Assembly (NCBI GenBank): GCA_017472685.1
Contig: JAFUOO010000004.1
Location: 158,903 to 222,902 of the forward strand
Direction: 5' to 3'
Length of the DNA: 64,000 nucleotides
From: Clostridia bacterium
GTDB lineage: Bacteria; Bacillota; Clostridia; UMGS1883
Shown here: positions 4,266 through 37,963 of the stretch, piece after piece
How the letters are laid out: each line of letters begins with the position of its first letter
Numbering within the stretch: the stretch's first letter is position 1
Translations under genes and position numbers: made by a program
Notes under the pieces: generated by a model
What the model was told of the DNA's origin: nothing
The model's database searches: none
Seen by the model: the letters and a program-made list of their open reading frames with translations, nothing else

Positions 4266-4680
4266 AAAAAAGGACAAGTTTCGAAAGGAACTTGTTCTTT
4301 TTTACTTATTACTTATTCACTCTTCACTATTCCCAAAATGTTTTTTTGTTGTCCCTTCTGGGCTACGCTCCGACGGGCTCAGCCATCGCCTTCATAAGGC
4401 TCGGCTTCACCTCGCAGGGACTCCTCGCTAAAAACAGTCCACCGGACTGTTTTCTTAACGCTCAGACTGATGGTCCACCAAAAAAAAAGACAAGTTTCGA
4501 AAGGAACTTGTTCTTTTTTACTTATTACTTATTCACTCTTCACTATTCCCTAAATGTTTTTTTTGTCCCTCCTGCGCTACGCTCCGACGGGCTCAGCCAT
4601 CGCCTTCATAAGGCTCGGCTTCACCTCGCAGGGACTCCTCGTTAAAACGACTTACTGTAAAGTAGGTCGTTTTTCTTAAT
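4252..4680 (+). repeat. Two tandem copies of a roughly 215-bp unit (4252-4466 and 4467-4680). Each begins with the 14-nt tRNA-Lys 3' end ctgatggtccacca.
   Basis: The two units are near-identical. Each has a terminator-like hairpin (gacaagtt-tcgaaagg-aacttgtc plus a T-run), an AT-rich stretch, and a GC-rich block of about 70 nt (ggctacgctccgacgggctcagccatcgccttcataaggctcggcttcacctcgcagggactcc). The 3' ends diverge but both end in a hairpin plus T-run. Confidence 0.8.
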
Positions 4681-4895
4681 TTCTGTATTCTGCTATTTTT
4701 TTGCCTTTTGACAGCTAAATGACTTTTTTAAAAAGATTATACTCACCGACCTTTAGTGGCTCGGTGAGGATTCGTTTAGTTTATTTTTTGAAACGATAAA
4801 TGTGGGGAAATGTGTTGAAAAGCTAAGAAAAATATGATATGTTAATCAAAAGGTGACTGTTTGCTGAAATATCGATGAAGGAGGTTGAGAAAAGA

Positions 4896-5642
4896 ATGTC
4901 AAATTATCTTGGATTTGATGCAGTCGACTGTGAAAAATTTTATTTTGCAAGTTATAATACGGAAGATAAAGAGCGGGTCGCCAAATATGCTAAAGAGCTT
5001 TCAGAATATGTATCGGTTTGGTATGATTATGGAATCAAAGCGGGATGTGAGTGGGAGAAAGAAATAAATGAGCATATTAAGAGCTGTGAATCACTTATTA
5101 TATTTATAACAAATAACATTTTTTCGAAAGAAGATTCGTATGTGCGAACGGAATATGATATAGCTAAATTTTATAAAAAGCCTATTTATATTGTGTTTCT
5201 TGATGAAATAAATGAATCTTTATTTCCAACTGAATATGTTGCCTGGTGGGTAAAAATGTGTCGTTTACAGGGCGTTAAAAGATCTGACTATTTGGACTAT
5301 AAAGATTGTATTAAAGCTTTAGTAAGAGATATTGGTTGCGAAAACAATAGTAATTCAACTGAAAATGTGAGAATTATCGAATATGATGATGGTATTTTCA
5401 ATGGTGAAGTCGTAAATGAAAAGAAACATGGAAAAGGTCGTTATGAGTTTAAAAACGGAGATGTGTACGAAGGCGAATTTCAAAATGATAAAATGCATGG
5501 TTATGGAAAATATGTTTGGATGAATGGAGATGTATATGAAGGTGAATTTCAGAACGGAATGCGAGATGGAATAGGGAAAACTACATACATAAGCGGAGAT
5601 GTGTACGAGGGAAGATATCAAAACGGCAAAAAAGTGAAGTAG
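4896..5642 (+). CDS. TIR-domain protein with C-terminal MORN repeats.
   Basis: The N-terminus has a TIR-like pattern (FYFASYNTEDKE ... W.DYG ... IIFIT.N...S..V..E). The C-terminus has three or more MORN repeats (GDVYEGEFQNgxxhGxGk). RBS GAAGGAGG is upstream. An alternative start lies at 4875. Confidence 0.6.
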   Translation: MSNYLGFDAVDCEKFYFASYNTEDKERVAKYAKELSEYVSVWYDYGIKAGCEWEKEINEHIKSCESLIIFITNNIFSKEDSYVRTEYDIAKFYKKPIYIVFLDEINESLFPTEYVAWWVKMCRLQGVKRSDYLDYKDCIKALVRDIGCENNSNSTENVRIIEYDDGIFNGEVVNEKKHGKGRYEFKNGDVYEGEFQNDKMHGYGKYVWMNGDVYEGEFQNGMRDGIGKTTYISGDVYEGRYQNGKKVK

Positions 5643-5706
5643 TTATCCACCAAACATGTGTAACTGTTGAAATATTGAAAGTAATCATTTAATATAATAG
5701 GCATAA

Positions 5707-5745
5707 AAAATCTGCAGGCTAAAATTGGTCTGCAGATTTAATCTT
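5707..5745. terminator. Bidirectional rho-independent terminator between convergent genes.
   Basis: Hairpin aaatctgcag...ctgcagattt flanked by A and T runs. Confidence 0.5.
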
Positions 5746-5897
5746 TATCGGAAAGTTATACTGTTTTATCTAACAGGTTTTGATGAAGTCTGTTAGCAGC
5801 TAATTGCTTTTGTTGGCATTTTCGCTTCTACGTTTTTTCGAGTAGTAGCACGTTTCGTATTTAGTAAAAACGGTGGGTTATACTAAATCAACTAAGG

Positions 5898-6575
5898 TTA
5901 AACGTAAAACTCTTCTAACGTATTTAAACAGATGCAACCAAGTGTATAGCCATATATTGCGCCACAATCTATGGCTATATGATTGTTTTTTGAGTATATC
6001 CTGCCATGATAGTTTTTATCAATTGTGAAAGTAGGAGTATGACCTGTGACCAGTATTTTGTCATCAAAATAAGCTTTTTGATAGTTGCATCTGCCACATA
6101 TAATATCTTCAGTGCTGTAATCGCTTAATTTTTTATCCTGAGAAAAATTGGAAAGGCCGGCATGAACAAGAACAAATTCTTTTTCTTCAAGCTTTATGAT
6201 TTCATATAAAGAAAAGGTTTCTAAGTAGTCTAAAATTCGTTTTCTTTTGGAGTAGTTCTGAAGGATAAAGTCTTTTTTAGTAGCATTTCCACCGTTGACC
6301 ATCCATTCCTGCCATAGCTTCATAGTTGTATGGTCCAAATTCTCTTCAGCATTTAGCTTTGTTAAAACAGGGAGCGCCATTAGTTCATGATTTCCGCGAA
6401 GTGGAATGATGTTGGGTCGAGTCATCATATCTAATAATATTTTAATGCCCCCTTCGCCTCGATCTATTACATCACCCAAGATATACAGCTTGTCGTTACA
6501 ATTTAAGTTGATTTTTTCAAGCATTGTCCTGTATTCGTCATAACAACCATGCAAGTCGGACATCACATATATCAT
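5898..6575 (-). CDS. Calcineurin-like metallophosphatase, PPP-family Ser/Thr phosphatase or ApaH-like.
   Basis: Motifs DLHG, GDVIDRG and GNHE are present. It is the last gene of the minus-strand operon. Confidence 0.75.
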   Translation of the reverse strand: MIYVMSDLHGCYDEYRTMLEKINLNCNDKLYILGDVIDRGEGGIKILLDMMTRPNIIPLRGNHELMALPVLTKLNAEENLDHTTMKLWQEWMVNGGNATKKDFILQNYSKRKRILDYLETFSLYEIIKLEEKEFVLVHAGLSNFSQDKKLSDYSTEDIICGRCNYQKAYFDDKILVTGHTPTFTIDKNYHGRIYSKNNHIAIDCGAIYGYTLGCICLNTLEEFYV

Positions 6576-6590
6576 CTTTGTATACTACCT

Positions 6591-6911
6591 TTATAACTTC
6601 CTTCTTTTTATTTCCTTATGAGTGGCTTCATGAAGCATAACAACGTCAGAATAACTATGGCAACCATAATCAACATTTTTGCAAATGTTGGTTGCGTAAC
6701 AGGCATTGAACTTTTCTGCAGTTAAATCGCGTAAGAAAAGAGTGGTTGTCAGATCCATGAACATTTTATCTAAATCTTCGTTGCTCATATTAGGCAGACC
6801 GGATAAGAATGTGTCTACAGTGGTTTTGTTTATAGGTGTTTCAGTTTTTTTGCGCGATAAGAAAAAAACTATAGCCACTGCAATAAGAATTATAATTATA
6901 AAAGTAGTCAT
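6591..6911 (-). CDS. Small membrane protein, single N-terminal TM helix.
   Basis: ACGGAGGA RBS. The first roughly 20 residues are hydrophobic (TTFIIIILIAVAIVFFL). It is tightly packed within the operon. Confidence 0.4.
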   Translation of the reverse strand: MTTFIIIILIAVAIVFFLSRKKTETPINKTTVDTFLSGLPNMSNEDLDKMFMDLTTTLFLRDLTAEKFNACYATNICKNVDYGCHSYSDVVMLHEATHKEIKRRKL

Positions 6912-6963
6912 ATTTAATCCTCCGTTATCAAAATGCAGATTTTAAAAAATGTAAAGTCGTAAA

Positions 6964-7152
6964 TTATTCCTTTTCGTAATAAAAACAACCGTTTCTGTCA
7001 CTGGGTTTATTATAACCCCCGTAATCTCCCTCGCAACGAACTCTACCATCCTTATCTCTGTCGCGATAGTTTGCGTATATACAATCTGAACAATTGCCTT
7101 CAAAATGCCCCATAGGGAGTTCGATTCTTTCAATTTTTGTTGTGTTTGTCAT
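6964..7152 (-). CDS. Small Cys-containing protein of 62 aa, possibly a Zn-binding ribbon.
   Basis: Strong GGAGG RBS 8 nt upstream of the ATG at 7152. It contains CxxC (GNCSDC) plus two further Cys (RCEG...NGCFYY). The longer ORF in the track starts with a non-ATG codon. Confidence 0.4.
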   Translation of the reverse strand: MTNTTKIERIELPMGHFEGNCSDCIYANYRDRDKDGRVRCEGDYGGYNKPSDRNGCFYYEKE

Positions 7153-7175
7153 AATAAATACCTCCGTTTTGTTTG

Positions 7176-7604
7176 TTAAATAATTTCTAAAGCGTCTTGT
7201 GTAAGTTGGATGTCCAAATCTGCCCTGATTGCTTTGTAGCATATTAACTCTCGGTTCGGAAGAACAAATATAGGAAAATATAGTTCTGTTATACTATCGG
7301 GCATTGCATGCATAATATTGATTATGTATTCTTTATCGGCAGCAGATGGCGTTTTAATACCAAAAAAGTGTGAATGAAAAACTCCTTTAAAATGCTTCCC
7401 GTTTGATTGCCAATTTGATATACATGTGTTAAGGAATGTTACATTTGGAGAATAGGCACAAGTGTATGTCGTTTCCGATGGAATATCTAACACGATATCT
7501 GTAATGACATCTCCATCATTACTTCCTAATATGCCACCTGTTTCAGGGGGACTGGCACGAATTAAAGAGTTAAGATGATTGTACGCAACAGTTGAAATTT
7601 TCAT
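7176..7604 (-). CDS. JAB/MPN (JAMM) metalloprotease-domain protein.
   Basis: Complete JAMM motif: a Glu upstream (PPETGGILG) and H-x-H-x7-S-x2-D (HSHFFGIKTPSAAD). AAGGAGG RBS precedes the ATG at 7604. The track start at 7610 is TTG. Confidence 0.65.
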   Translation of the reverse strand: MKISTVAYNHLNSLIRASPPETGGILGSNDGDVITDIVLDIPSETTYTCAYSPNVTFLNTCISNWQSNGKHFKGVFHSHFFGIKTPSAADKEYIINIMHAMPDSITELYFPIFVLPNRELICYKAIRADLDIQLTQDALEII

Positions 7605-7777
7605 ATTCAATTATCCTCCTTGAAAAAAATGACAGCTCGTATTGAGTACATCTTTATTATACACATGATAAATATATGAGATTTTGGGGTGAAAGAAATA
7701 TGAGAGTGTTTATGAACTGCCTCTTACGATGTAACGTTGAAATTGTTTCTAAGAGGCAGTTCATTGAAACCGATCGC

Positions 7778-8746
7778 TTATCTGTTAGGGAGATAGTCGT
7801 AAGGATTTAAGGTGGGATTATTTATATTTCCATAACTCTTTTGACTATTACGAACTTCGTAATGAAGGTGAGGACCTGTACTATTGCCTGTAGACCCCAC
7901 AGTTCCTATCTGCTGACCTGCTGTTACATAATCACCTGCTTTGACACTGTAGCTATTGAGATGAGCGTAATATATATATACGGTTTTACTGTTAACGTTA
8001 CATTTAATAATGACATGTTTGCCATAGCTAGTCGTCAATGTTCTGGCAGTGTCCACAACTCCGCTGTATGTTGCGTAAACAGGAGTACCTTTAGAAGCGG
8101 AAATATCAGTGCCACTATGATACTTTCCGGAACTGTTATAACGAGGCCAATTCTTCTGATCTGTGCCACCATTGCCGCCAACAGGCCATACTTTTGTTTT
8201 GCTTGAGTTATTTGATGATGAATTGTTATTAGAGAGGTCTTCTGCAAAGGCTAATTTGTAGCCACGCTTGTTTGATTTTGCTTCATATATAGTATTGTAG
8301 TACTTACCTGACAGAACATATACTTTATCGCCGACACAATAGTATCCTGTTTTGCCGCCGCCGTTGTACTTATATGTTGTAACCTTCTTGTTTGCAGTGA
8401 AGGATGAAGAAGGAGAAATATTACCACCAAGCAAGTCGCTTGTACGAATGTAGCCTTCTCTGTGGGAGTTGCCTACGGGATAGGAAAGGTAGATGTATTT
8501 AGAAGTTATTTTATAGATGTAGCAAATATCACCTTTCTCTATATAGGCATTGTATTCTTTTGACGGACTGCTTGTACCTCTGGTATTGGTATTAGAAGAA
8601 GTATAAACGTTTAATTTTTTTACGGCAGTAAATTCGCAGTAGTTGCTTTTAGATAATGATGGGTAACTTGCGGCAGATGCACTTATACTAAGAAGAGAGA
8701 ACGCCATAATGATAGTTAATACAATTGAAATTATTCTTTTTGTCAT
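7778..8746 (-). CDS. Secreted SH3-like plus M23 (lysostaphin-like) peptidase. Paralog of 30764-31768.
   Basis: Signal peptide (MTKRIISIVLTIIMAFSLLSISASA) and two SH3-like modules. The M23 catalytic signature is HxxxD ... HLHYE. There is a low-complexity Ser/Asn linker. Confidence 0.7.
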   Translation of the reverse strand: MTKRIISIVLTIIMAFSLLSISASAASYPSLSKSNYCEFTAVKKLNVYTSSNTNTRGTSSPSKEYNAYIEKGDICYIYKITSKYIYLSYPVGNSHREGYIRTSDLLGGNISPSSSFTANKKVTTYKYNGGGKTGYYCVGDKVYVLSGKYYNTIYEAKSNKRGYKLAFAEDLSNNNSSSNNSSKTKVWPVGGNGGTDQKNWPRYNSSGKYHSGTDISASKGTPVYATYSGVVDTARTLTTSYGKHVIIKCNVNSKTVYIYYAHLNSYSVKAGDYVTAGQQIGTVGSTGNSTGPHLHYEVRNSQKSYGNINNPTLNPYDYLPNR

Positions 8747-9055
8747 AATTGTTAATCCTTTCTGTTTTAAATATTTATATTGAGACTGTAAAAGGAGTTC
8801 AGCAACACCTCCTTTAATAAAAGTTTTAAGAATTGATTCAAGAACTGTCATATTTTATACCTGACTTGAATAATAACCTTAACTTAATTAATGTTTTTGA
8901 CTGAGTAAATAAATGTGTTGGAACTTTGTTCATAATGAACCTCCTTAAGACTTAATGTTTCAATGTCAGTTGACACTTATATATATACCACGGGATGAAA
9001 AATAGAAAAAATGGGGGTGATAATTTGGTAGAGGTGTATTCAAAGAAGAACTTAA

Positions 9056-10069
9056 TTATATTCTGAAACCTATTTCGCGGTTTTCCGCAGATAGTTTGGT
9101 TGGAAGTTCTGCTTTAACAAATCCGGCATTAATCGAAATTGTTTGTGCACCTAAAGCCAACATATAAATAGCCCTGCGGAATATATTATCAGCAAGCTTT
9201 TCGACATCTCTCACTCCGGGTTCCGTACAAGCTTCACAGATTAACTTAATCGCTGATTCATAAAAAACTATTTCTGATTTCTCGACTTTATATTTCGAAT
9301 AAAGTTTTGGAATAATATAATTTTTTAAAATAAGATATTTTTCTTTTTTTGTATAGCCTTGTATATGTATTACATCTAATCGATCGCGGAGAATGGGATT
9401 TACCTCATTGATGTCGTTTGCGGTTAGGATAAATGTTATATTGGAAACGTCTAACGGGATAGCTAAAAATTGATCTATAAATGCGGTGTTTGTGCTATCA
9501 AAAAGTGAAAGGAGAGCCATTTGAGGACTTCGCTCATTCTTTTCCATTTTGTCCACTTCATCTAAACAGATTACGGCAGAAAAACTTCCGGAGCGCTGTA
9601 TAGCATCTGCTATATAACCTTGATTTGCAGCTTTCCATGTGGGATTGCTTCCCAAAAGCTCCCATTGAGCGGTGGTGCCTTGAAGTGGTACTTTATAAAA
9701 GGGTTCGTTGAGAACCTCGGCTATAATTTCGCAGATTGTGGTTTTGCCGGTGCCTGCAGGTCCTGTTAATAATATGCCTTTGCCGGACTTGCCGGTGCGT
9801 TCACGAACTGCCAACAATTGAAGAATTTTTGTTTTGGTTTCGTTCATGCCGTGATGCTGGGAGTTAAGCATTTCCTGTGCTTTTTGGTAGTCAATTTTAG
9901 TGTGTTCTTTTCCTATACTTGACCATGGAAGGCGTTTAATTGCTTCACGTTGTTCGGTGGTTAATACGTTGGATTTCCATATTTTATATGCGGCGGGCGA
10001 CATGTTTTTCTCCAATGTATCTTTCTTTTCGTCCAATGCTTCAAAAGCGCGTTCTATTTTTTCATCCAT
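9056..10069 (-). CDS. Lon-family AAA+ ATPase module without a protease domain.
   Basis: Walker A GPAGTGKT, Walker B CLDEVDK. A Lon-like sensor region (ILRDRLDVIHIQGYTKKEK) resembles the Lon PLLDRMEVI..GYTEEEK segment. The protein stops after the ATPase module. AAGGAG RBS precedes the ATG at 10069. Confidence 0.6.
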   Translation of the reverse strand: MDEKIERAFEALDEKKDTLEKNMSPAAYKIWKSNVLTTEQREAIKRLPWSSIGKEHTKIDYQKAQEMLNSQHHGMNETKTKILQLLAVRERTGKSGKGILLTGPAGTGKTTICEIIAEVLNEPFYKVPLQGTTAQWELLGSNPTWKAANQGYIADAIQRSGSFSAVICLDEVDKMEKNERSPQMALLSLFDSTNTAFIDQFLAIPLDVSNITFILTANDINEVNPILRDRLDVIHIQGYTKKEKYLILKNYIIPKLYSKYKVEKSEIVFYESAIKLICEACTEPGVRDVEKLADNIFRRAIYMLALGAQTISINAGFVKAELPTKLSAENREIGFRI

Positions 10070-10276
10070 ATTCAACACTCCTTAAAAATTAATTTGACTC
10101 TCCGCCTTACACCGATATAAATATCATACTGTAACGAGTTAAAATTTGGGGAGGGAAAGAAATGAGAGTTTATATGACAATAAGGTTAATGTAAAGGGCA
10201 AAACTTGACTTTATTTGTCATTTTTGAGATAATAGAAGCAAATGCAAAAGCTGTGTCAGAGGGGAGTGGCAAAATT

Positions 10277-13582: not shown

Positions 13583-13827
13583 TGAATAGAAGAAGGGTTT
13601 GCTGTTCACCTTTTTCACAAAGAGTTTTGAATGAATAGCCTTACCCTCCCAAAAAAATATGTTTTTTGTTTATGTATAATATATTTATCGAAGCGCTGTT
13701 AATAATGAGTAGCGTAAATATTGATAGGAGAGGTGAGATAAAAATGATAACATGCATTTTTCGAATAAGAGCATCCCCTTTTAATAATGCCTTTACTAAT
13801 TAAAAAAATATTAATGAGGTGAAACTT

Positions 13828-23868: not shown

Positions 23869-23885
23869 ATAATGAGGTGTTATAT

Positions 23886-28396: not shown

Positions 28397-30079
28397 ATGG
28401 AAAGCCGTGTAAAAATAAAAACAAGGAATAATTCAGAACATAAAGATAAGAACAGGGTATATTTTGCTTGCCATCCAGATGATTTCGAAATAAGCTTTGA
28501 TAAAATTACTGATAAAATTCTTGAAAAGCAAAATTGCGCAATATACTATGGTATAACTGATAAAGCTATGAAAGAAGATGAATCTATAGCTGTTTTATTA
28601 CAGATGCAACTGATTGTTATACCGATAACTGAAAAATTTTTGCGCGAAGATAATGGTGCCTATAATATTGTGTTTAAGATAGCGATTGAAAACCATATTC
28701 CCGTTTTGCCGATTATGCAGGAAGAGGATATAGGGGACTTATTTAATGAGAAATGTGGAAAACTCCACTACCTCAAAGAAACAACCGAAACTACGGAGAT
28801 AAGTTATGATGAAAAAATAGAGAGTTTTTTGAATTCTGTATTAGTCAACGACGAGATAGTAGAAAAGATACGTGATGCATTTGCAGCATATATTTTTTTA
28901 AGCTATAGAAAAAAAGACAGAAAATATGCACAAGAATTAATGAGACTTATACATAAGAATGATTTCTGTCGTGATATTGCGATTTGGTATGATGAGTTTT
29001 TGACGCCCGGTGAGAATTTCAACGATTCTATAAAAGAAGCTATTAAAAAAAGCGGATTGTTTGTACTTGCGGTAACACCGAATTTGATAAATGAAACAAA
29101 CTATGTAATGACAACGGAATACCCTATGGCAAAGAGAGAAGGAAAGCTTATACTTCCTACAGAACTTGTTCCGACAGACAGGAAGGCACTCGCTAAAAAG
29201 TATAGTGATATTCCAACACCTATAGATATAAATAATGATATCGAATTTTCAGATGCTCTTCTTGATTCTGTTAAGAAAATAGAAATTAAGAAAAATGTTA
29301 TCACGCCGGAACACAACTTCTTCATTGGACTTGCGTACCTGGATGGAATTGATATGGAAATTGATCATGCACGTGCTCTTGCACTTATAACCAGTGCTGC
29401 AGAAGAGCAACTTGTGGAGGCAATGAAAAAATTGATATCAATGTATAAAAGAGGAAAAGGTGTTTGCGTAGATTATATCATAGCACTAAACTGGCAATAT
29501 CGTTTGGTAAATATACTGCTTCAAAAATTTAACGCTGAAAAAACGGTAGCTGCTTTTTCGGAATATTTCCATGAATTGTTTAATTATGTCGGAGATTTGT
29601 ACAACGAACGAGGAGATGGACCATATGAGTTAGGTGCATCCAAAGTGCTTGAAGATTGCATCTTATATATTGATGGGCTTCAAAGGGAGAGACATAAAGA
29701 ACTTCAAGAAAAATTCAACAAGGATGATGTATTAAGAGAATGCTTGCGTGATGATGAAATGATGAATGTGTTAATAGAAACAAGACAAAAACTGCGTTTT
29801 GTGGCAGAAAGATTCTTGCCAAAAACATGTGATCTTTACAGGGAATTGATTTATGACAAAAATCAGGACAAAACGCCTTCCCAAGCTGTTATCAGGTGTT
29901 GGCTATCATATTTTTCTGAGTACGCAGGAGATATTGAGGTTGCCATGCAATATAGAAAAGAAGCAGAAAACATTATAGGGGATTACGCATCAAAGGATAC
30001 TGGAGATGTCAATGAGCTATGTAAAAAATGTGGTATAGGTATATGTAGTATGAAAAAAATCATTGACAGCTTTCGTTAG
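28397..30079 (+). CDS. TIR-domain protein with an N-terminal domain of unknown function and a C-terminal Sel1/TPR-like helical region.
   Basis: Internal TIR (AYIFLSYRKKDRKYAQEL ... WYDE ... LFVLAVTPN...S.YV..E). N-terminal VYFACHPDD region of unknown function. Terminator follows. Confidence 0.55.
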   Translation: MESRVKIKTRNNSEHKDKNRVYFACHPDDFEISFDKITDKILEKQNCAIYYGITDKAMKEDESIAVLLQMQLIVIPITEKFLREDNGAYNIVFKIAIENHIPVLPIMQEEDIGDLFNEKCGKLHYLKETTETTEISYDEKIESFLNSVLVNDEIVEKIRDAFAAYIFLSYRKKDRKYAQELMRLIHKNDFCRDIAIWYDEFLTPGENFNDSIKEAIKKSGLFVLAVTPNLINETNYVMTTEYPMAKREGKLILPTELVPTDRKALAKKYSDIPTPIDINNDIEFSDALLDSVKKIEIKKNVITPEHNFFIGLAYLDGIDMEIDHARALALITSAAEEQLVEAMKKLISMYKRGKGVCVDYIIALNWQYRLVNILLQKFNAEKTVAAFSEYFHELFNYVGDLYNERGDGPYELGASKVLEDCILYIDGLQRERHKELQEKFNKDDVLRECLRDDEMMNVLIETRQKLRFVAERFLPKTCDLYRELIYDKNQDKTPSQAVIRCWLSYFSEYAGDIEVAMQYRKEAENIIGDYASKDTGDVNELCKKCGIGICSMKKIIDSFR

Positions 30080-33849: not shown

Positions 33850-34068
33850 GAGGGGATACATAATGTTTAAAATAGCCTGTAGCATAACATTTAAGTCAGA
33901 AGAGACGTGAAAAATTATAAATCTGTTAAAAGAATATTACGAGTGATCAGAACGCAAATTAATAAGTCATTGAAAGACACGGGAGTGAGATGTAGTTTTT
34001 CGGGAAAGATACAAAACAAAATGCTCATATTTTCTGAGTAAGGAACTATTAAAACTTATAAAATTTAG

Positions 34069-34330
34069 CGTCAGTGCACCTCTTAATCAGGGACTTCAAT
34101 TTGTGCCTCTGTCTGGGTTAAGTGCTCTATCAACTGAGCGTAGCGAAGTTGGCGTCCTGTGGGCGATGAAGCGAGTGCGGAGAGTTGTGCCGTGGTCAAT
34201 TTTGTATGAGTTAATGCGAATGAACAAAATTGGGTACCACAAACGGGCGACAGGTGTGCGAGCGGGGCAGTGAAGCTCACGAAGGTACCGCAAAGGTCAT
34301 CCTAACATGCAAAGTAACAAAAAATATACG
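34069..34330. other. GC-rich non-coding element of about 260 bp, an unassigned candidate structured RNA.
   Basis: The GC shift relative to the AT-rich flanks is sharp. Only short antisense ORFs without RBS are present. The 5' end contains cacct-cttaatcaggg, matching the tRNA-Lys anticodon arm. Confidence 0.25.
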
Positions 34331-34438: not shown

Positions 34439-35023
34439 ATGGATAATATTTACAACATAATAGTTACATGTTTTGTTGCTCCCGCTATATATGAGCTTTT
34501 AAAACATTTATTGCTTTTAGTAAAAAATAAGTTACAAGAAAGCAATGTTGAATACACGATTTCAGGATATTGGGGAGCTATTCATTCTGTTAAAGACAAA
34601 AATGGAAAAGAGCATACAGCATATGAACTTCTTAAAATAAGCCAAGAGGGCAACAAACTTTTTTCAAAACTTTATCAGCTCACAAATGACGAAAGATTTT
34701 ATACATACAATTGTGTTGGATATATTAAGGGTCAAAAAGTTTCTTTAGCTTATAGTGAATTGAACAATCAGTTTTCAAATGATACAGGAACTATAAATTT
34801 ATTAAGATATGAAAAATTTCAGCACACTCCGAATTTCATGGGCGTATATTCTGAATTTTCTAAAAGCGATACAGTATGTACATCAAAAGAATACAACTTA
34901 ATTCCAGTAAAACTTAATTTAAAAGAACGAATTTTATTAATTCTATTAAAGTCAAGATATGCAAAAATATATTTAAAAAAGGAAAGTTTTAAAAATGCTT
35001 TATACATGCAAAAGATGTGGTAG
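34439..35023 (+). CDS. Hypothetical protein.
   Basis: ORF with an N-terminal hydrophobic segment. No recognisable domain. Confidence 0.35.
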   Translation: MDNIYNIIVTCFVAPAIYELLKHLLLLVKNKLQESNVEYTISGYWGAIHSVKDKNGKEHTAYELLKISQEGNKLFSKLYQLTNDERFYTYNCVGYIKGQKVSLAYSELNNQFSNDTGTINLLRYEKFQHTPNFMGVYSEFSKSDTVCTSKEYNLIPVKLNLKERILLILLKSRYAKIYLKKESFKNALYMQKMW

Positions 35024-35402
35024 TTGCTGTAAAGGGACAATGGGACCATTTGTTTTTCCATCAGATGCAACTAGAATAAGTGATAGTTTAAATATTTCAA
35101 AAATGGAGTTTTTAGAAAAATACTGTATAAAAAATACACTTGGTTTATCTAACTTAGTAATAGATATATATTCTTTAAAGTTATCTGATAATGGATGTGT
35201 ATTTTTGAATGAAGACAATTTATGCGATGTATATGATTTTAGGCCCTATCAATGTGTTAATGCACCGTATCATTTTCTTTCTCAATCGGGCTTCTGGCAA
35301 CATATGAAATGTCTTGATTTTAAGTTGTTAAGTGAGAGTAACTCAGAAGAAGAGGATGCCGAAATTTTGAAAGAATTAATTGATGTTGGATATTCATTTT
35401 AG
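34995..35402 (+). CDS. YkgJ-family CxxCxxCC metal-binding protein.
   Basis: N-terminal CKRCGSCC motif plus conserved downstream Cys (NGCVF..NLCDVY..YQC). AAGGAAAG RBS. Confidence 0.55.
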   Translation: MLYTCKRCGSCCKGTMGPFVFPSDATRISDSLNISKMEFLEKYCIKNTLGLSNLVIDIYSLKLSDNGCVFLNEDNLCDVYDFRPYQCVNAPYHFLSQSGFWQHMKCLDFKLLSESNSEEEDAEILKELIDVGYSF

Positions 35403-35417
35403 GAAAGGAGGATAAAC

Positions 35418-35531
35418 ATGCCTGGACCGGTACAATCACCTAAAAAGGTTTTAGAATACTTGACCAATGCTATTAATAAGTTAATTAACGGTAGTAACAA
35501 AGGCGCTATTGAGGCAAGTAAGAAGGACTGA
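35418..35531 (+). CDS. 37-aa small protein (MPGPVQSPKKVLEYLTNAINKLINGSNKGAIEASKKD).
   Basis: Very strong AGGAAAGGAGG RBS. Followed by a strong terminator. Confidence 0.3.
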   Translation: MPGPVQSPKKVLEYLTNAINKLINGSNKGAIEASKKD

Positions 35532-35554
35532 AAAAGTATAATCCAAAGTTAAAA

Positions 35555-35597
35555 ATACGTATGCAAAAGTGTTTTTTCTTTTGCATACGTATTTTTT
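35555..35597 (+). terminator. Rho-independent terminator.
   Basis: Hairpin atacgtatgcaaaag...cttttgcatacgtat followed by T6. Confidence 0.55.
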
Positions 35598-35946
35598 AGC
35601 AACAATCGAGGAAGGCATTTTTTCCTTGGTTTTGTCTTCATACTTATCACTCCTTTATCTTATTTTAACACAAAAAAAGTAGACACTTTTTTTGTCTACT
35701 TTCATTTTGCCGTTTCATTCATTGGACGCACTTTTTTATTGAAAGAAAGAGGAAAATGAGAAAAAACAAACTGGAAAAAGAATGGAAATTCAAAAAAGTA
35801 ATTGATTCGTTAGCTTTGCAGAGTGAAGAAGAGGAGAGAAAACATAAGGAAATAATTCAGAAACGTACTGAATTAGAAACACAGTATGCTGACATAATAA
35901 CGAATTGTAAACAAGCTGATAAGAATTCAGTTAAGAAAATGCCGAC

Positions 35947-36231
35947 TTGGCTGGGGGGTTAATTGTTATACCGTTGTGGTTCTTGTTAGTATGTGCAGTA
36001 ACTGCAGTGATATTCTATTTGTGTGAGCTTACGAGAATAGAGTGGATTGAAAACATATCACTTCCTATAGTATTAGTGCTGGTTTATGTTGTAAGCCCAG
36101 TATTTTTATTTAAGTTTGTCCGCCATAGGTTTGGAGATATTACGGCAGATGAAATTAAAAAAAATACCAAAAGAAGTATAATGAATACGAAGAAAAAGAT
36201 GCTCCATTACGAAGAGGATATTATGAAATAA
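35947..36231 (+). CDS. Small membrane protein (2 TM), hypothetical.
   Basis: Two hydrophobic helices. Overlaps a 68-aa upstream ORF at 35756-35962. Confidence 0.3.
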   Translation: MAGGLIVIPLWFLLVCAVTAVIFYLCELTRIEWIENISLPIVLVLVYVVSPVFLFKFVRHRFGDITADEIKKNTKRSIMNTKKKMLHYEEDIMK

Positions 36232-36281
36232 TTAAGAGAAAGGATAAAATAAAAGACAGTATAGATTACAAAAAGATAGAC

Positions 36282-36760
36282 TTGCAAAAAACAGACAAAG
36301 AGTTGAACAAATATTCGTTGATTAATATAGAGATTAACGGCGTTGAAGATTTGGTTAAGAAATACATTACTATAGTATCGATATGTAATGACTATAAGTA
36401 TGCAAAGAAAGAGGAAGAAAAAATTTGGCAAGAATTTGACAAGCTTTTGGCTGGTGATAAATATACAGCGTATGTTTTACTGTTTAGTGCGTATGATGAT
36501 GGAAGAATAAAAAATCTTGATCTTGGAGCAAAGATGCTGTATATGGCAGCTGAATAGGGAAATGAAGATGCTGTTAAAATGCCCCCCGATATATGGATAA
36601 AATTGAAGAGCAAATAAGCAATAATTATTATGAAGCTGCTTGCAGATTAGCTGACGCTTTTAAGAGAGCAGGAATGAAAAAAGCTGCTGTACTGTATGAG
36701 ATTGCGAGTGAGAAGGAAATAGAAGAAAGGCAAGAAATAATATTGTTTTCGGAAGTGACG
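36282..36760 (+). pseudogene. Possible frameshifted remnant of a Sel1/TPR-like repeat gene.
   Basis: The ORF at 36282-36557 ends in ...GAKMLYMAAE. Sel1-like sequence (GNEDAVKM..., YYEAACRLADAFKRAGMKKAAVLYEIAS) continues in other frames up to about 36760. Confidence 0.25.
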
Positions 36761-36884
36761 TAATGAGAAGAATGAAAGAAAACTCTTCATCATATACTCC
36801 TGAATACACAGTGGAGCTTGCTCCTGTTATTGATGTATCGGATATGTAATGAATTAAAGCTCACGGATTTCGTGAGCTTTTTTA

Positions 36885-37778
36885 CTACATTTTTGCCTCT
36901 AAAAGTCTTATATAGTGATTTGCTTCCCGAAGGACATGGTCTGCTAAAAGGGGAAGTATGACTGATGCTATTTTGCAGTCCTGAATTCCTATTGTGCCTG
37001 CCTGTTTAAAGTCGCGGAAGCGCAAAGTTTCATTAAGGGATGCTTGAGTAATATTTCCTTTTGCCCGCGCTTCGCCTAAGAGTGCGGCGTATTCCTTTGC
37101 AAAATTGTCTGAGGTTTCAATCAATTCCTCTTCGGAGGGGTCTAATAGCCCGCGTATAAACATTGCGTGCTCCATCATAATTCTGTTCCAGAACTGTTCG
37201 GTGTCCTTCATGAATTGGTCATTTAAAATTCCGTTTTCGATAGCTGTGATATAGGTGAGGTACAGTTTTGCTTCTCTTAAAATGTGTTCAATCAAAAGGG
37301 GATAATTCATTGTGAACATATTACAGCTTTTTACGTTATTTAAAATACGTTCTTTAAATGCAATAAGCTCTTTCACGAGCATTTTTGCTCTTTTGTTCAA
37401 GGCGGCGACACAAGAAAAACAACGGAGATCGGGCTCACTGCAGTCATCAATGCCGTTTAGCATGGATGCCATTTTAGTGATATTTGTGTTAATGCCTATG
37501 CCTGTAAAGCGGGAGGTTTGTTTTTCGGCATTAAGGGTATAGTCGGTGACAATTTCGCCTGAATCAAGAACTTTTTGGCGTACGGCGTTGTTGCTGACAT
37601 TTACTGTATCTGATAAAAGCTGTTCAAATTGCATTTTAAACCATTCTGCCTTTTTGGCAAATGAAGCATTTGCAGGGGTGAAGCCGGCTTCAAGAAAAAG
37701 CGAATGTTCTTTCATTATTCTGGCAAAAAACAGATGTAATTCGAGTGATTGCATGATATATTTTCTTTGACTTTGCAT
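36885..37778 (-). CDS. DUF2935-family protein (Clostridial helical-bundle family).
   Basis: Duplicated E..HS.F/MMEHA.F helical motifs typical of this family. Confidence 0.5.
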   Translation of the reverse strand: MQSQRKYIMQSLELHLFFARIMKEHSLFLEAGFTPANASFAKKAEWFKMQFEQLLSDTVNVSNNAVRQKVLDSGEIVTDYTLNAEKQTSRFTGIGINTNITKMASMLNGIDDCSEPDLRCFSCVAALNKRAKMLVKELIAFKERILNNVKSCNMFTMNYPLLIEHILREAKLYLTYITAIENGILNDQFMKDTEQFWNRIMMEHAMFIRGLLDPSEEELIETSDNFAKEYAALLGEARAKGNITQASLNETLRFRDFKQAGTIGIQDCKIASVILPLLADHVLREANHYIRLLEAKM

Positions 37779-37884
37779 GATACTATAGTCCTTTCAAAAG
37801 TTTTATCTTACAAATTAATATATGCTATAATCGGGAGAAGAGTTCGTAGTGTGACAGACATCTGTTGACAAAATAGTGCCAAAG

Positions 37885-37913
37885 TTGACAATAAGGTGGA
37901 GAAAGCGTATAAT
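37885..37913 (+). promoter_or_regulatory. Consensus sigma-A promoter upstream of the EamA transporter gene.
   Basis: TTGACA, a 17-nt spacer, then TATAAT, about 50 nt before the start codon. Confidence 0.55.
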
Positions 37914-37963
37914 TGCCATGAGAATAAATCTTGATTGTGTTGATTTTGCACGGAGGTAAATTT

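What the first reader, a model, noticed from the sequence alone, without database searches (positions are those of the whole stretch)
4680..37930. About 33-kb AT-rich accessory island next to tRNA-Lys with five TIR-domain proteins and no mobility genes.
Base composition drops sharply after the tRNA-Lys-associated repeats and recovers at the consensus promoter of the EamA transporter gene. The island encodes TIR-MORN, TIR-STAND-TPR, a small TIR, TIR-TM-propeller and TIR-Sel1 proteins, plus JAB, Lon-like, kinase, SprT-like and RelE-like genes. This is a striking concentration of NAD-ase-type immune domains. No integrase, transposase or conjugation gene is visible, which suggests an old, decayed integration or island formation by recombination.
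Basis: partly seen in the sequence, partly recalled or inferred. Interest (0 to 1): 0.6.

Follow-up and report, generated by a model that had tools for sequence, protein, structure and literature searches.

The report
TIR-rich defence island at tRNA-Lys
A 33.7-kb block of foreign, AT-rich DNA lodged next to a tRNA-Lys gene of an uncultured gut Clostridia bacterium carries five TIR immune-type proteins around a conserved, undescribed kinase–nuclease–RyR gene cassette that also sits beside TIR genes in distant genomes, so it may be a new kind of TIR-signalling phage defence.

Summary
GC is 34.8% inside the interval and 46.0%/44.5% in the flanks (GC3 0.315 vs 0.481, p=2e-9). Four TIR domains pass Pfam's cut-off and the fifth is confirmed by homology. 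All five keep the catalytic Glu. No integrase, transposase or relaxase is present.

The closest sister species has the same flanks but only 4.7 kb between tRNA-Lys and EamA, holding one normal-GC gene. Homology stops at 4287 and resumes at 37961. All same-species metagenome contigs carry the island. Copies of the tRNA-Lys 3' end (14 nt here, 50 nt in the sister) mark past site-specific integration.

The new point is that the TIR cluster is not a random pile. Genes 20894-28240 form a cassette: a 757-aa unknown protein, PP2C, a 1359-aa kinase fused to a Can2/Card1-like CARF–PD-(D/E)xK nuclease, and a 93-aa RyR protein. The first and third genes are paired in 10/10 contexts examined. A TIR gene lies within 10 kb in 8/10. 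The family has ≥818 clusters, no name and no PADLOC or NCBIfam model.

RyR domains were recently shown to bind TIR-made cADPR signals. I therefore propose a Thoeris-like system with many TIR sensors feeding one kinase–nuclease effector. This coupling is inferred, not shown.

The parts
4107..4265 (+). tRNA-Thr(GGT) 4107-4182 and tRNA-Lys(CTT) 4190-4265; the tRNA-Lys 3' end is the left anchor (attachment site) of the island
   Evidence: ARAGORN and Rfam. Homology to sister species L002 ends at 4287.
4265..4647 (+). Two tandem ~216-bp units (terminator hairpin, AT-rich stretch, GC-rich stretch). The second unit is preceded by an exact 14-nt copy of the tRNA-Lys 3' end (4467-4480). This looks like an att scar, and the copy number varies between strains.
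   Evidence: Repeat families D1/D2 are 96-98% identical. The 14-mer occurs twice against 0.15 expected. Strain contig L092 has one unit only. The same unit type, ending in the tRNA 3' end, is present in L002.
4875..5642 (+). TIR-MORN protein (255 aa)
   Evidence: Pfam TIR_2 42.7 bits and MORN 3e-19. Catalytic Glu kept. The TIR is related to a TIR-FHA protein next to the cassette in L111.
5898..10078 (-). Minus-strand gene group: metallophosphatase (5898-6575), two small proteins (6591-6911, 6964-7152), weak JAB-like (7176-7610), secreted SH3-like/M23 peptidase (7778-8851), Lon-type AAA+ ATPase without protease domain (9056-10078)
   Evidence: Pfam and PADLOC. NCBIfam lon model positions 300-567 only. 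The AAA+ gene is 94% identical in L099 and likewise divergent from a TIR-NB-ARC-TPR gene there. Metallophosphatase and M23 homologues lie near the cassette in L114.
10205..12622 (+). TIR-NB-ARC(STAND)-TPR protein, about 780-805 aa (NLR-like)
   Evidence: Pfam TIR_2 1e-17, NB-ARC 2e-13, TPR_12 6e-18. Glu aligned with the AbTIR/Cat1 catalytic Glu. 72% identical homologue in L099.
12977..13582 (+). Small TIR protein (201 aa)
   Evidence: Pfam TIR_2 19.5 bits, below cut-off. Homologous to the TIR of the L108 TIR-FtsK protein, E 2e-15. Glu column kept.
13819..17683 (+). Secreted CHAP-Flg_new-Big_2-cohesin protein (13819-16779; GC 0.405, the least AT-rich large gene) and a Sel1-repeat protein (16952-17683)
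   Evidence: Pfam. The Sel1 protein is 69% identical in L099, where it lies directly upstream of the g14 homologue. A Flg_new-NlpC/P60 analogue lies near the cassette in L114.
17718..19970 (-). TIR - transmembrane helix - large C-terminal repeat domain (750 aa)
   Evidence: Pfam TIR_2 6e-10. Hydrophobic helix ALSVIISALFLFIVLACLLGNIF is visible in the sequence. Weak PQQ-repeat hit, E 0.002. The N-terminal 305 aa are related to a TIR-beta-propeller protein next to the cassette in L110.
20195..20767 (+). SprT-like zinc metallopeptidase-type protein (190 aa)
   Evidence: Pfam SprT-like 9e-7. Absent from L099.
20894..23167 (+). g14: 757-aa all-helical protein of unknown function with an internal duplication. 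It is the invariable upstream partner of the kinase-nuclease.
   Evidence: No Pfam, PADLOC, NCBIfam, PHROG or PDB hit. Only 4-8 clusters found in 5.8e9 proteins by the word-indexed search. The ORFs upstream of the kinase in all 9 other contexts are homologues (hmmsearch 1e-23 to 1e-58). The AF2 model is poor (pLDDT 66) and has no fold match.
23215..23868 (+). PP2C-type protein phosphatase (217 aa)
   Evidence: Pfam PP2C_2 8e-23. Present beside the kinase in 7 of 10 contexts.
23877..27956 (+). g16: 1359-aa Ser/Thr kinase - Rossmann-like domain - helical region with RyR-like motif - Can2/Card1-like CARF + PD-(D/E)xK nuclease. Proposed effector.
   Evidence: Pkinase 1e-19 and Card1_endonuc 5e-4. 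PADLOC CARF4-PDDEXK 2e-12. D...ECK motif. AF2 pLDDT 88.4. The Foldseek top 16 hits are all Can2/Card1/Cdn1/VC1899, E 3e-11 to 7e-7. RyR-like stretch: hhalign probability 90.5%, E 1.3e-6. Family size: 818 cluster representatives.
27959..28240 (+). g17: stand-alone 93-aa RyR-domain protein, starting 3 nt after the kinase-nuclease stop codon
   Evidence: Pfam RyR 2e-37. Aligns end to end with RyR R12 repeats and the B. thetaiotaomicron RyR-like protein. 55-90% identical homologues beside the kinase in 5 other contexts. Canonical RyR is fused to truncated family members P0047 and P0050.
28382..30079 (+). 565-aa protein: N-terminal TIR-like domain without the catalytic Glu, then a TIR domain with Glu, then a helical (Sel1-like?) C-terminus
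   Evidence: Pfam TIR_2 1e-9 at residues 171-263. Alignment A2. Replaced by a 712-aa TPR protein in L099. Split in strain contig L087.
30197..33849 (+). 130-aa unknown protein (89% identical in L099), second SH3-like/M23 peptidase (44% identical to 7778-8851), 468-aa multi-pass membrane protein, 195-aa unknown protein
34060..34310 (+). GC-rich conserved non-coding element. In the sister genome, the homologous element lies inside the 50-nt tRNA-Lys att duplication. Probable relic of the end of an older integrated element.
   Evidence: Alignment with L002 5370-5515 contains exact blocks of 22-25 nt. The best local match of tRNA-Lys anywhere in the island lies here (score 31 against a null maximum of 28 in 60 shuffles). 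No Rfam family. No tRNA or tmRNA at default thresholds.
34439..37778 (.). Distal AT-rich segment: 194-aa unknown protein, CxxCxxCC protein, four small ORFs (35756-36763), DUF2935 protein (36885-37778, minus strand, GC 0.398)
   Evidence: Pfam. Absent from L002/L001.
37885..37913 (+). Perfect sigma-70 consensus promoter (TTGACA-17-TATAAT) in front of EamA. It lies in island-side DNA that has no counterpart in the sister species.

Best explanation
The interval 4288-37960 is a horizontally acquired, now immobile genomic island at the 3' end of tRNA-Lys(CTT). It was built by site-specific integration(s) whose recombinase has since been lost, and then remodelled by cassette exchange.

Its core is a multi-gene TIR-centred conflict (most likely anti-phage) module. 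Five TIR proteins each carry a different sensor region (MORN, STAND-TPR, none, TM plus extracytoplasmic repeats, TIR-like plus helical repeats). They surround a conserved cassette of g14 (unknown, 757 aa), PP2C, g16 (kinase - Rossmann - RyR-like - CARF - PD-(D/E)xK nuclease) and g17 (RyR).

Proposed mechanism, by analogy with Thoeris systems that pair several ThsB TIR sensors with one effector:
1. Infection activates one or more TIR sensors.
2. The TIRs convert NAD+ into an ADP-ribose-derived signal.
3. The signal is read by the CARF-like and/or RyR-like pockets of g16 and switches on its nuclease (abortive infection).
4. The kinase/PP2C pair gates or resets the switch.
5. The stand-alone RyR protein buffers or degrades stray signal.

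What is shown: the island's accessory status; the att relics; the domain content; the Can2/Card1-like fold (predicted); and the recurrent g14+g16 (+PP2C, +RyR, +TIR) neighbourhood.

What is inferred: the defence function (about 0.7); TIR-to-g16 signalling (about 0.35-0.4); and the roles of kinase, PP2C, RyR and g14.
For: Island status:
- GC and GC3 shift.
- The sister species has 4.7 kb with one normal-GC gene between the same flanks.
- Copies of the tRNA-Lys 3' end: 14 nt here and 50 nt in L002.
- The element that lies inside L002's att duplication is found at 34.1 kb in the window.
- No recombinase gene.
- Mosaic relative L099: shared genes are 61-94% identical, with different cassettes at three positions.

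Organised module:
- g14-like plus g16-like are adjacent in 10/10 contexts, even where the kinases are only 25-42% identical.
- PP2C is present in 7/10 and a stand-alone RyR in 6/10.
- A TIR gene lies within 9-10 kb in 8/10. L108 has four TIR genes in a row (TIR-FtsK, TIR, TIR-Sel1, TIR-WD40). L110 has two TIR-propeller genes plus NADAR. L109 has an ADP-ribosylglycohydrolase/NADAR gene.
- Canonical RyR is fused to truncated family members.

Effector:
- g16 model pLDDT 88.4. All significant PDB fold matches are the ligand-activated CARF-nucleases Can2, Card1 and Cdn1.
- Intact D..ECK motif.
- No cyclase or Cas10 in the island that could make cyclic oligoadenylate. The TIRs are therefore the only signal-generating enzymes encoded nearby.

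Ligand logic:
- RyR (PF02026) proteins bind or cleave 2'cADPR and 3'cADPR made by Thoeris TIRs (PMC13232231).
- g17 keeps the H..W and D positions.
- The g16 family has a RyR-like stretch.
- All five TIRs keep the catalytic Glu.
Against: - No experiment supports any step of the mechanism.
- PADLOC HMMs find no complete known system, and no known Thoeris effector is present.
- Two of ten contexts have no TIR within reach, and the RyR gene is missing in four. The cassette can evidently exist without an adjacent TIR and may be a self-contained kinase-triggered nuclease.
- TIR-STAND-TPR proteins are by precedent self-contained sensor-effectors that deplete NAD+ rather than signal.
- The ten contexts were chosen for long contigs. 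They are not a random sample, and some may share ancestry.
- The CARF assignment rests on a predicted structure and whole-chain Foldseek alignments with high rmsd (9-15 A; TM 0.53-0.72 on the target).
- The RyR-like stretch in g16 covers only 47 columns, and the window's own copy reads HLCIA where the family consensus has HPCIV.
- The His of the RyR 'HPCLVPY' motif is Thr or Asn in all system-linked RyR proteins. Its consequence for ligand binding is unknown.
- The secreted cell-wall hydrolases (CHAP, 2x M23) in the island do not fit an intracellular defence role.
Confidence: 0.6

Rival explanations
1. This is an ordinary defence island: a hotspot where independent, self-contained systems have piled up. 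Each TIR protein would be its own sensor plus NAD+-depleting effector (Avs/NLR-like or stand-alone). The g14-PP2C-kinase/nuclease-RyR cassette would be a separate kinase-triggered abortive-infection system. Proximity to TIRs would reflect only the general clustering of defence genes.
For: - The TIR-NB-ARC-TPR architecture is typical of single-protein NLR-like defence.
- TIRs in Avs-type and stand-alone proteins are treated as NAD+-depleting effectors, not signal producers, in the systematic Thoeris survey.
- 2/10 cassette contexts lack a nearby TIR, and 4/10 lack RyR.
- The kinase domain resembles the single-gene defence kinase PD-T4-6 (1e-24).
- The window's TIR genes are interspersed with unrelated genes and lie on both strands.
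- The L099 comparison shows cassette-wise turnover.
Against: - TIR genes lie within 10 kb in 8/10 deeply diverged contexts, often as arrays directly downstream of the cassette (L108, L110, L114).
- The TIR proteins of different loci are related to one another.
- RyR, a domain now known to bind TIR products, is fused or adjacent to the cassette (PMC13232231).
- g16 has a ligand-sensor fold (CARF-like) but no partner cyclase.
Confidence: 0.33
2. The region is ancestral, not acquired. The common ancestor carried it, and the L001/L002 lineage deleted it and gained the 1244-aa gene. The low GC would reflect relaxed or different selection on fast-evolving conflict genes rather than foreign origin.
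For: Only one sister species with conserved synteny was available. All same-species contigs carry the island. Conflict genes are often AT-rich.
Against: - GC3 differs by 17 points across 29 genes of unrelated function.
- Both genomes carry tRNA-Lys 3'-end duplications at this junction, the hallmark of integrase-mediated insertion.
- A mosaic relative of the island (L099, also GC 0.34) shows 61-94% protein identity, uneven along the island. That pattern fits transfer and recombination, not vertical descent.
- Homology breaks exactly at the tRNA end and at the EamA start codon.
Confidence: 0.05
3. The module is not an immune module. The TIR, kinase/PP2C, Sel1/TPR/MORN and secreted cell-wall hydrolase genes would serve cell-envelope signalling, inter-bacterial antagonism or host interaction in the gut.
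For: - Three secreted peptidoglycan hydrolases (CHAP-cohesin, 2x M23) and a TIR protein with an extracytoplasmic domain are present.
- M23 and Flg_new hydrolases recur near the cassette in L113 and L114.
- No experimentally validated defence system is detected.
Against: - The PD-(D/E)xK nuclease of Can2/Card1 type, STAND NTPase, TIRs with catalytic Glu, NADAR/ADP-ribosylglycohydrolase neighbours and HEPN/MNT neighbours are all signatures of intracellular conflict systems.
- g14 and g16 evolve fast while RyR is conserved, which fits an arms-race pattern.
Confidence: 0.05

Closest known systems
Thoeris anti-phage systems (types I-XI; ThsB TIR sensors plus a signal-activated effector)
   Same: One or several TIR proteins with catalytic Glu lie next to a candidate effector that has a small-molecule sensor fold. 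Several different TIR genes per effector is a known Thoeris layout (own knowledge: Doron 2018, Ofir 2021). The signals are cADPR isomers, and RyR domains bind these (PMC13232231).
   Different: No known Thoeris effector domain is found (SIR2-SLOG, Macro-TM, caspase-like, DUF2270, etc.). The candidate effector is a 1359-aa kinase-RyR-like-CARF-nuclease that always has a 600-1100-aa partner, and usually PP2C and a RyR protein. The TIRs here carry large sensor domains (STAND-TPR, TM-repeat, MORN), a class that the 2025 survey deliberately excluded. That survey's text and supplements contain no kinase, CARF, PP2C, RyR or Card1 terms.
Can2 / Card1 / Cdn1 CRISPR ancillary nucleases (CARF + PD-(D/E)xK)
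   Same: The predicted fold of the C-terminal ~500 aa of g16 matches these proteins and nothing else at significant level (E 3e-11 to 7e-7, TM 0.53-0.72 on the target). Weak Pfam Card1_endonuc hit, PADLOC CARF4-PDDEXK hit, and an intact nuclease motif.
   Different: There is no type III CRISPR, Cas10 or other cyclic-oligoadenylate synthase nearby. The domain is fused behind a kinase, a Rossmann-like domain and a RyR-like helical region. Sequence identity to the PDB proteins is 9-12%. The ligand is unknown.
RyDEP / phage RyR-domain (PF02026) proteins
   Same: g17 is a canonical single RyR repeat (2e-37). It keeps the H-x-x-W and the acidic residue in 'EYDR', which correspond to the conserved ligand-contacting positions described for the family (PMC13232231).
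   Different: It is host-encoded, inside a TIR-rich island, and translationally coupled to a kinase-nuclease gene. The described proteins are phage counter-defence factors. The His of 'HPCLVPY' is Thr or Asn in all six system-linked copies. I could not align g17 to RyDEP itself because no RyDEP sequence was available.
TIR-STAND (Avs / bacterial NLR-like) single-protein defences
   Same: 10205-12622 has TIR + NB-ARC with a Walker A motif (GMGGCGKS) + TPR sensor repeats.
   Different: It matches no PADLOC Avs or NLR model above noise. In both the window and L099 it sits in a conserved divergent pair with a Lon-type AAA+ ATPase.
tRNA-linked genomic islands / defence islands
   Same: Inserted at a tRNA 3' end, deviant GC, direct repeats of the tRNA end, absent from a sister species, cargo of conflict genes.
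   Different: No integrase, excisionase or transfer genes remain. The distal att repeat is reduced to relics. The island is fixed in all sampled strains of the species.
Defence kinases (PD-T4-6, Stk2-type, MADS MAD6, BREX PglW)
   Same: The kinase domain of g16 scores 1e-24 against PD-T4-6 and 4e-18 against mad6.
   Different: These are domain-level matches only, and all NCBIfam scores are far below the cut-offs. None of those systems has the RyR-like/CARF/nuclease extension or the g14 partner.

Membership tests
tRNA-associated genomic island | Inserted immediately 3' of a tRNA gene | tested here: met
   tRNA-Lys(CTT) is at 4190-4265. Homology with the sister species ends at 4287.
tRNA-associated genomic island | Base composition and codon usage deviate from the host core | tested here: met
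   GC 0.348 vs 0.445-0.460; GC3 0.315 vs 0.481; p=2e-9.
tRNA-associated genomic island | Absent from, or different in, closely related genomes with conserved flanks | tested here: met
   L002 and L001 have 4.7 kb with one unrelated normal-GC gene. Only one sister species was available. All same-species contigs carry the island.
tRNA-associated genomic island | Flanking direct repeats derived from the tRNA 3' end (attL/attR) | tested here: inconclusive
   An exact 14-nt copy lies at 4467-4480, proximal only. There is no copy at the distal border. Relic evidence exists at 34.06-34.31 kb through homology to the element inside L002's 50-nt att duplication.
tRNA-associated genomic island | Integrase or other mobility genes | tested here: not met
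   No recombinase, transposase or relaxase hit in 30 ORFs. Non-coding gaps are at most 590 bp.
Thoeris (any described type) | TIR-domain protein(s) with the catalytic glutamate | tested here: met
   Five TIR domains have Glu in the AbTIR/Cat1 catalytic column.
Thoeris (any described type) | Adjacent effector of a described class (SIR2-SLOG, Macro-TM, caspase-like, DUF2270, ...) | tested here: not met
   No such domain found by Pfam, PADLOC or NCBIfam.
Thoeris (any described type) | The TIR produces a cADPR-type signal that activates the effector | not testable with these tools
   This needs biochemistry. It is only inferred from the RyR and CARF-like sensor folds.
Can2/Card1-type CARF nucleases | CARF domain followed by a PD-(D/E)xK nuclease domain | tested here: met
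   Met at the level of predicted structure. All 16 significant PDB fold matches are of this type. D..ECK motif present. Pfam PF09002 scores 20 bits, below the cut-off of 26.4, in the window copy, but is listed for many family members.
Can2/Card1-type CARF nucleases | Association with type III CRISPR-Cas / cyclic oligoadenylate synthase | tested here: not met
   No Cas10, CD-NTase or CRISPR array in the island or in the nine other contexts.
RyR-domain (PF02026) nucleotide-signal binding proteins | Full-length match to PF02026 above the gathering score | tested here: met
   g17 scores 127.6 bits against a cut-off of 27.4, over model positions 1-91 of 91.
RyR-domain (PF02026) nucleotide-signal binding proteins | Conserved ligand residues (His-x-x-Trp, phosphate-binding His, Asp) | tested here: inconclusive
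   H-x-x-W and the D of EYDR are present. The His of 'HPCLVPY' is Thr. The mapping to RyDEP numbering was not possible without its sequence.
Avs / NLR-like STAND defence | STAND NTPase with N-terminal effector and C-terminal repeat sensor | tested here: met
   TIR + NB-ARC + TPR in 10205-12622.
Avs / NLR-like STAND defence | Match to a curated Avs or NLR defence model | tested here: not met
   The 10205-12622 protein gets only weak TIR-level hits (PDC-S66, ThsB). The one Avs2 hit in PADLOC (E 1e-3) belongs to a different protein, the AAA+ at 9056-10078.

The most novel reading that the evidence does not exclude
The g14-PP2C-g16-RyR cassette, together with its surrounding TIR array, is a previously undescribed class of TIR-signalling immunity. 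Many structurally different TIR sensors, including NLR-like and membrane-spanning ones, would converge on one giant effector. That effector would read the NAD-derived signal through RyR-like and/or CARF-like pockets and respond with a PD-(D/E)xK nuclease under kinase/phosphatase control. A host-encoded RyR protein would act as built-in signal buffer or off-switch. This would make the RyR domain a native component of bacterial TIR signalling, which phages later borrowed for counter-defence and animals for RyR channels. It would also link CARF-type effectors to TIR rather than to CRISPR signals.
Probability: 0.3. Interest if true: 0.8.

Novelty: new variant of a known kind. Interest (0 to 1): 0.62.

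Why it matters
As a tRNA-linked defence island, the region is a textbook kind of object. What it contains is less ordinary. It holds a large (≥818 clusters at 50% identity), unnamed protein family that fuses a kinase to a Can2/Card1-like sensor-nuclease. That gene is always paired with a fast-evolving 600-1100-aa partner, usually accompanied by PP2C and a highly conserved RyR protein, and it lies repeatedly next to arrays of TIR proteins.

The RyR domain was shown only in 2026 to bind and cleave TIR-made cADPR signals, and only for phage proteins. A host-side RyR protein wired into a TIR-rich locus gives a directly testable hypothesis for what bacterial RyR domains do. It would also explain how sensor-rich TIR proteins, which current Thoeris surveys exclude, might signal.

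If the coupling is real, it adds a new effector class, and a regulatory layer of phosphorylation plus signal buffering, to TIR immunity. If it is not real, the cassette is still a candidate new kinase-nuclease defence system that is widespread in gut Clostridia.

Tried and rejected
- Rfam, at gathering and at E≤1 thresholds, found nothing but the tRNAs. It found nothing for the GC-rich element at 34.1 kb.
- ARAGORN at default thresholds found no tRNA or tmRNA in that element. Its relaxed-threshold calls are artefacts of the tRNA-Lys duplication.
- An exact-pattern scan of IMG/VR for the element found nothing.
- The apparent 'decayed anticodon arm' at 34074-34096 scores within the shuffle range (26 against a null maximum of 28). 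I do not rely on it. Only the reverse-strand D-arm-like match (31) exceeds all shuffles.
- A metagenome scan with the flanking lipoprotein, meant to find more sister genomes, returned only 31-34% relatives. The comparison therefore rests on one sister species.
- The other 78 EamA loci do not conserve the tRNA-EamA synteny.
- PADLOC HMMs gave no complete known system.
- PHROGs gave only weak SprT-like hits, so there is no evidence of a prophage.
- g14 has no family, PDB-sequence or fold match. The AF2 model (pLDDT 66) is too weak to interpret.
- BLASTP of g17 against g16 was only suggestive (E 0.06). The single-sequence hhalign was weak (probability 40.7%). The profile-profile version is the one I use.
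- tblastn of g16 against plasmid and phage collections found no match.
- Literature searches with CARF/Card1/kinase/RyR terms returned only unrelated biomedical papers.

Full report
**1. The observation.** A 2-kb sliding window shows GC of 0.42-0.48 on both sides. GC is 0.31-0.38 from about 4.7 to 37.9 kb, with one bump of 0.416 at 14-16 kb.

Exact figures are 0.460 (1-4680), 0.348 (4681-37930) and 0.445 (37931-64000). The 29 island genes have mean GC3 of 0.315 and the 22 flank genes 0.481 (Mann-Whitney p=2e-9). tRNA-Thr(GGT) at 4107-4182 and tRNA-Lys(CTT) at 4190-4265 precede the drop. A 12/12 consensus promoter lies at 37885-37913 in front of the EamA gene.

The domain calls:
- Pfam places TIR_2 above its gathering score in four proteins: 4875-5642 with MORN; 10205-12622 with NB-ARC and TPR; 17718-19970 on the minus strand; and 28382-30079.
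- The 201-aa protein at 12977-13582 scores below the cut-off, at 19.5 bits against 28.
- That fifth protein is nevertheless a real TIR. It matches the Pfam-positive TIR of a TIR-FtsK protein in locus L108 at E 2e-15 and aligns with the others.
- In an alignment with AbTIR and Cat1 taken from PDB matches, all five domains have Glu in the catalytic column. An extra N-terminal TIR-like domain of the 565-aa protein does not.
- The TIR domains are only about 20-25% identical to each other, so they are not recent duplicates.
- Metallophosphatase, M23 (two paralogues, 44% identical), CHAP-Flg_new-Big_2-cohesin, Sel1, SprT-like, PP2C, kinase, RyR, CxxCxxCC and DUF2935 are confirmed.
- The 'Lon-like' gene is the ATPase plus lid of Lon without a protease domain.
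- JAB is weak.
- 'RelE-like', 'Sel1' in the 565-aa protein and 'propeller' have no or only marginal library support.
- None of the 30 ORFs scanned is an integrase, transposase or relaxase. The longest non-coding gap is 590 bp.

**2. Is it an accessory island?** A scan of one genome per species (185,579 species) with the EamA protein found two goat-gut Clostridia MAGs as closest relatives, at 86% amino-acid identity.

L002 has the same frame: MetH, the 736-aa lipoprotein, tRNA-Thr, tRNA-Lys, then EamA and the AI-2E transporter. Only 4.7 kb separates tRNA-Lys from EamA there. That stretch holds one 1244-aa secreted protein at GC 0.44-0.49. L001 has the same gene.

By blastn the flanks are 79-85% identical. 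Homology stops at window position 4287 and resumes at 37961, a few bases before the EamA start codon.

Metagenome contigs that encode identical flank or island proteins are 99.96-99.995% identical to the window. They come from at least eight samples. Every contig that reaches past the tRNAs carries the same island in the same order. The island is thus fixed in the sampled population but absent from the sister species. Several assemblies break right after the tRNAs, as expected at a repeat.

**3. How it got there.** The 14 nt at the 3' end of tRNA-Lys (CTGATGGTCCACCA) recur exactly at 4467-4480, against 0.15 matches expected by chance. This copy sits at the junction of two tandem 216-bp units. 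One strain contig (L092) has a single unit.

The sister genome has an exact 50-nt duplicate of the tRNA-Lys 3' part, running from the anticodon stem to CCA. Together with the gene, this duplicate brackets a 219-bp insert, and a further 14-nt copy lies downstream. These are classical footprints of integrase-mediated insertion into a tRNA gene.

The GC-rich element inside that 219-bp insert has a clear homologue in the window at about 34110-34300, sharing exact blocks of 22-25 nt. The best local match of tRNA-Lys anywhere in the island also lies there, scoring 31 against a maximum of 28 in 60 shuffles.

My reading is tandem accretion. Newer DNA entered at the intact tRNA end and pushed older att relics distally, and the recombinase genes were later lost. 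This part is inference from sequence relics. The distal att copy is not preserved. The element has no Rfam family and no viral match.

**4. The island has relatives and is mosaic.** The 757-aa protein g14 (20894-23167) has almost no relatives: 4 clusters in 5.8e9 proteins.

One relative lies on a 26-kb contig (L099, GC 0.32-0.37). That contig shares the following with the window:
- the Lon-type AAA+ (94%), divergently paired with a TIR-NB-ARC-TPR gene (72%);
- the Sel1 protein (69%);
- g14 (61%);
- PP2C (66%);
- the kinase (79%);
- RyR (90%);
- the 130-aa protein (89%).

It has other genes where the window has the small TIR plus CHAP-cohesin, the TIR-TM protein plus SprT, and the 565-aa TIR protein. 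Uneven identity and cassette replacement are what one expects of a recombining conflict locus.

**5. The conserved cassette.** The non-kinase part of the 1359-aa protein g16 has 818 cluster representatives at E≤1e-3, and 360 at ≤1e-30, among 1.84e9 representatives. Most are 1300-1550 aa with an N-terminal kinase. None has a name.

I examined nine further contexts, chosen for long contigs, in which the kinase is 25-42% identical to the window's copy. Counting the window, the results over ten contexts are:
- The gene immediately upstream is a g14 homologue in 10/10 (hmmsearch 1e-23 to 1e-58).
- PP2C is present in 7/10.
- A stand-alone 92-108-aa RyR protein is present in 6/10.
- At least one TIR gene lies within 9-10 kb in 8/10.

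Individual loci show the pattern clearly:
- L108 has four TIR genes in a row just downstream (TIR-FtsK, TIR, TIR-Sel1, TIR-WD40).
- L110 has two TIR-propeller genes and a NADAR gene.
- L114 has a TIR-Sel1 gene.
- L111 has a TIR-FHA gene.
- L112 has a TIR-nSTAND-TPR gene and a TIR-WD40 gene.
- L109 has no TIR but has an ADP-ribosylglycohydrolase/NADAR protein.

Two truncated family members carry a canonical RyR domain fused at their C-terminus. RyR proteins are 55-90% identical across these loci. The kinases are 25-42% identical and g14 23-37%, so there is a conserved ligand-type module next to fast-evolving partners. M23, metallophosphatase and Flg_new-type cell-wall hydrolase genes also recur (L113, L114). 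No homologue of g16 was found in the plasmid or phage collections.

**6. What g16 is.** Pfam finds a kinase at residues 125-316 and a weak Card1-like nuclease at the C-terminus. PADLOC's CARF4-PDDEXK model matches residues 1229-1355. The motif EFDV...IECKA is a PD-(D/E)xK signature.

An AlphaFold2 model of residues 341-1359, built with a 40-sequence alignment, is confident (pLDDT 88.4, pTM 0.82). All 16 significant Foldseek matches in the PDB are Can2, Card1, Cdn1 or VC1899, with E from 3e-11 to 7e-7 and TM 0.53-0.72 on the target. These are CARF sensor domains joined to PD-(D/E)xK nucleases, and they are switched on by cyclic oligoadenylates.

The first part of the segment is Rossmann-like, with only weak dehydrogenase matches. 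Between the two lies a helical region whose family-conserved motif (EHRRWV..GW...K.HPCIV) aligns with the RyR profile at probability 90.5% and E 1.3e-6.

g14 remains opaque. It is all-helical, its model has pLDDT 66, and it has no fold match.

**7. [quoted passage not shown] Binding uses a His-x-x-Trp, a second His and an Asp (PMC13232231).

g17 is a canonical RyR repeat (2e-37). It has the H-x-x-W and the Asp of EYDR. Like all six system-linked copies, it has Thr or Asn in place of the His of 'HPCLVPY'.

The island and its relatives encode no cyclase that could feed a CARF domain. The only signal-making enzymes nearby are the TIRs.

I therefore propose a Thoeris-like logic, in which several TIR sensors converge on one effector. 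TIR activation would yield an ADPR-derived signal. g16 would read that signal and cut nucleic acid. The kinase/PP2C pair would gate or reset the switch. The free RyR protein would buffer the signal.

What is shown: the domain content, the predicted fold, the gene linkage and the conservation pattern. What is inferred: every biochemical step. I put the defence function at about 0.7 and the TIR-to-g16 coupling at about 0.35-0.4.

The main rival is that the TIR proteins are self-contained NAD+-depleting sensor-effectors, with the STAND-TPR one the clearest case, and that the cassette is an independent kinase-triggered nuclease. The two TIR-less contexts and the four RyR-less contexts support this rival.

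**8. Comparison with what is known.** The region is a tRNA-linked island in every respect except for mobility genes and a preserved distal repeat.

It is not a member of any described Thoeris type, because no described effector domain is present. The 2025 systematic survey of TIR signalling systems lists 29 effector configurations. It contains no kinase, CARF, PP2C, RyR or Card1 term in its text or in its four held supplements, and it deliberately excluded Avs-type and stand-alone TIRs.

g16 is fold-related to Can2/Card1 but lacks the CRISPR context. NCBIfam (June 2026) and PADLOC-DB 2.0 have no model for g14, g16 or the cassette. Within the libraries I could search, I found no description of this neighbourhood. 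The Aravind-group conflict-system paper (PMC7159879) mentions TIR and PP2C but not RyR. I cannot exclude a description in papers outside the held library.

**9. Verdict.** The finding is real, and its interpretation is largely right. As an island it is a new member of a known kind. Its content points to a new variant of TIR-centred immunity that can be tested directly. Interest 0.62.

Noticed in passing
window 34060-34310; L002 5340-5520: A conserved GC-rich non-coding element of about 170-230 nt has length-variable inserts and a conserved hairpin (CAACT-GAGCGTRGCGA-AGTTG). In the sister genome it is the sole cargo of a 219-bp insert bracketed by a 50-nt tRNA-Lys duplication. It contains a reverse-strand D-arm-like 18-mer (17/18 to tRNA-Lys). 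It has no Rfam family and no viral match. It could be an RNA gene or the arm of an integrative element.
   Followed up: partly
window 4265-4647; L092 12530-12720: The 216-bp unit after tRNA-Lys is present twice in the window and once in another strain (L092). Many assemblies of the species break here. Modules of the same unit and its hairpin (AAAACGACTTACTG.AAAGTAGGTCGTTTTT) are shuffled in the sister genome.
   Followed up: partly
window 40681-42720: The PHO4-family phosphate transporter plus PhoU-like pair is absent from the sister genome L001. There, homology jumps from window 40681 to 42720. The PhoU-like gene has low GC (0.357). This is a second, small variable segment 3 kb from the island.
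   Followed up: no
L087 (strain contig) 430-2112 and 8936-9815, equivalent to window 28382-30079 and 36885-37778: In one metagenome assembly, the 565-aa TIR gene is called as two ORFs (388 + 167 aa) and the DUF2935 gene also as two (92 + 181 aa). One small ORF is missing. This could be pseudogenisation in that strain or assembly error.
   Followed up: no
window 27959-28240; L099, L109-L111, L113 RyR genes: All six cassette-linked RyR proteins have Thr or Asn where animal RyR repeats and the B. thetaiotaomicron protein have the His of 'HPCLVPY'. They remain 55-90% identical to each other across loci whose kinases are only 25-42% identical.
   Followed up: partly
L108 1-848, L109 14844-16106, L110 3165-4445, L113 18651-19916: A ~420-aa TrwB/VirD4-like (T4SS-DNA_transf) ATPase, sometimes next to a ClpP-like protease, recurs near the kinase cassette in distant loci but not in the window. 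It looks like a further optional component rather than a conjugation gene.
   Followed up: no
window 7778-8851 and 30719-31768: Two secreted SH3-like/M23 peptidase paralogues (44% identical over 314 aa, including the non-catalytic N-terminal half) lie 22 kb apart on opposite strands inside the island. Homologues lie near the cassette in L113 and L114.
   Followed up: partly
window 37885-37960: The perfect consensus promoter and the whole 5' untranslated region of the core EamA gene lie in DNA that has no counterpart in the sister species. EamA expression in this species is therefore driven from island-side sequence.
   Followed up: partly
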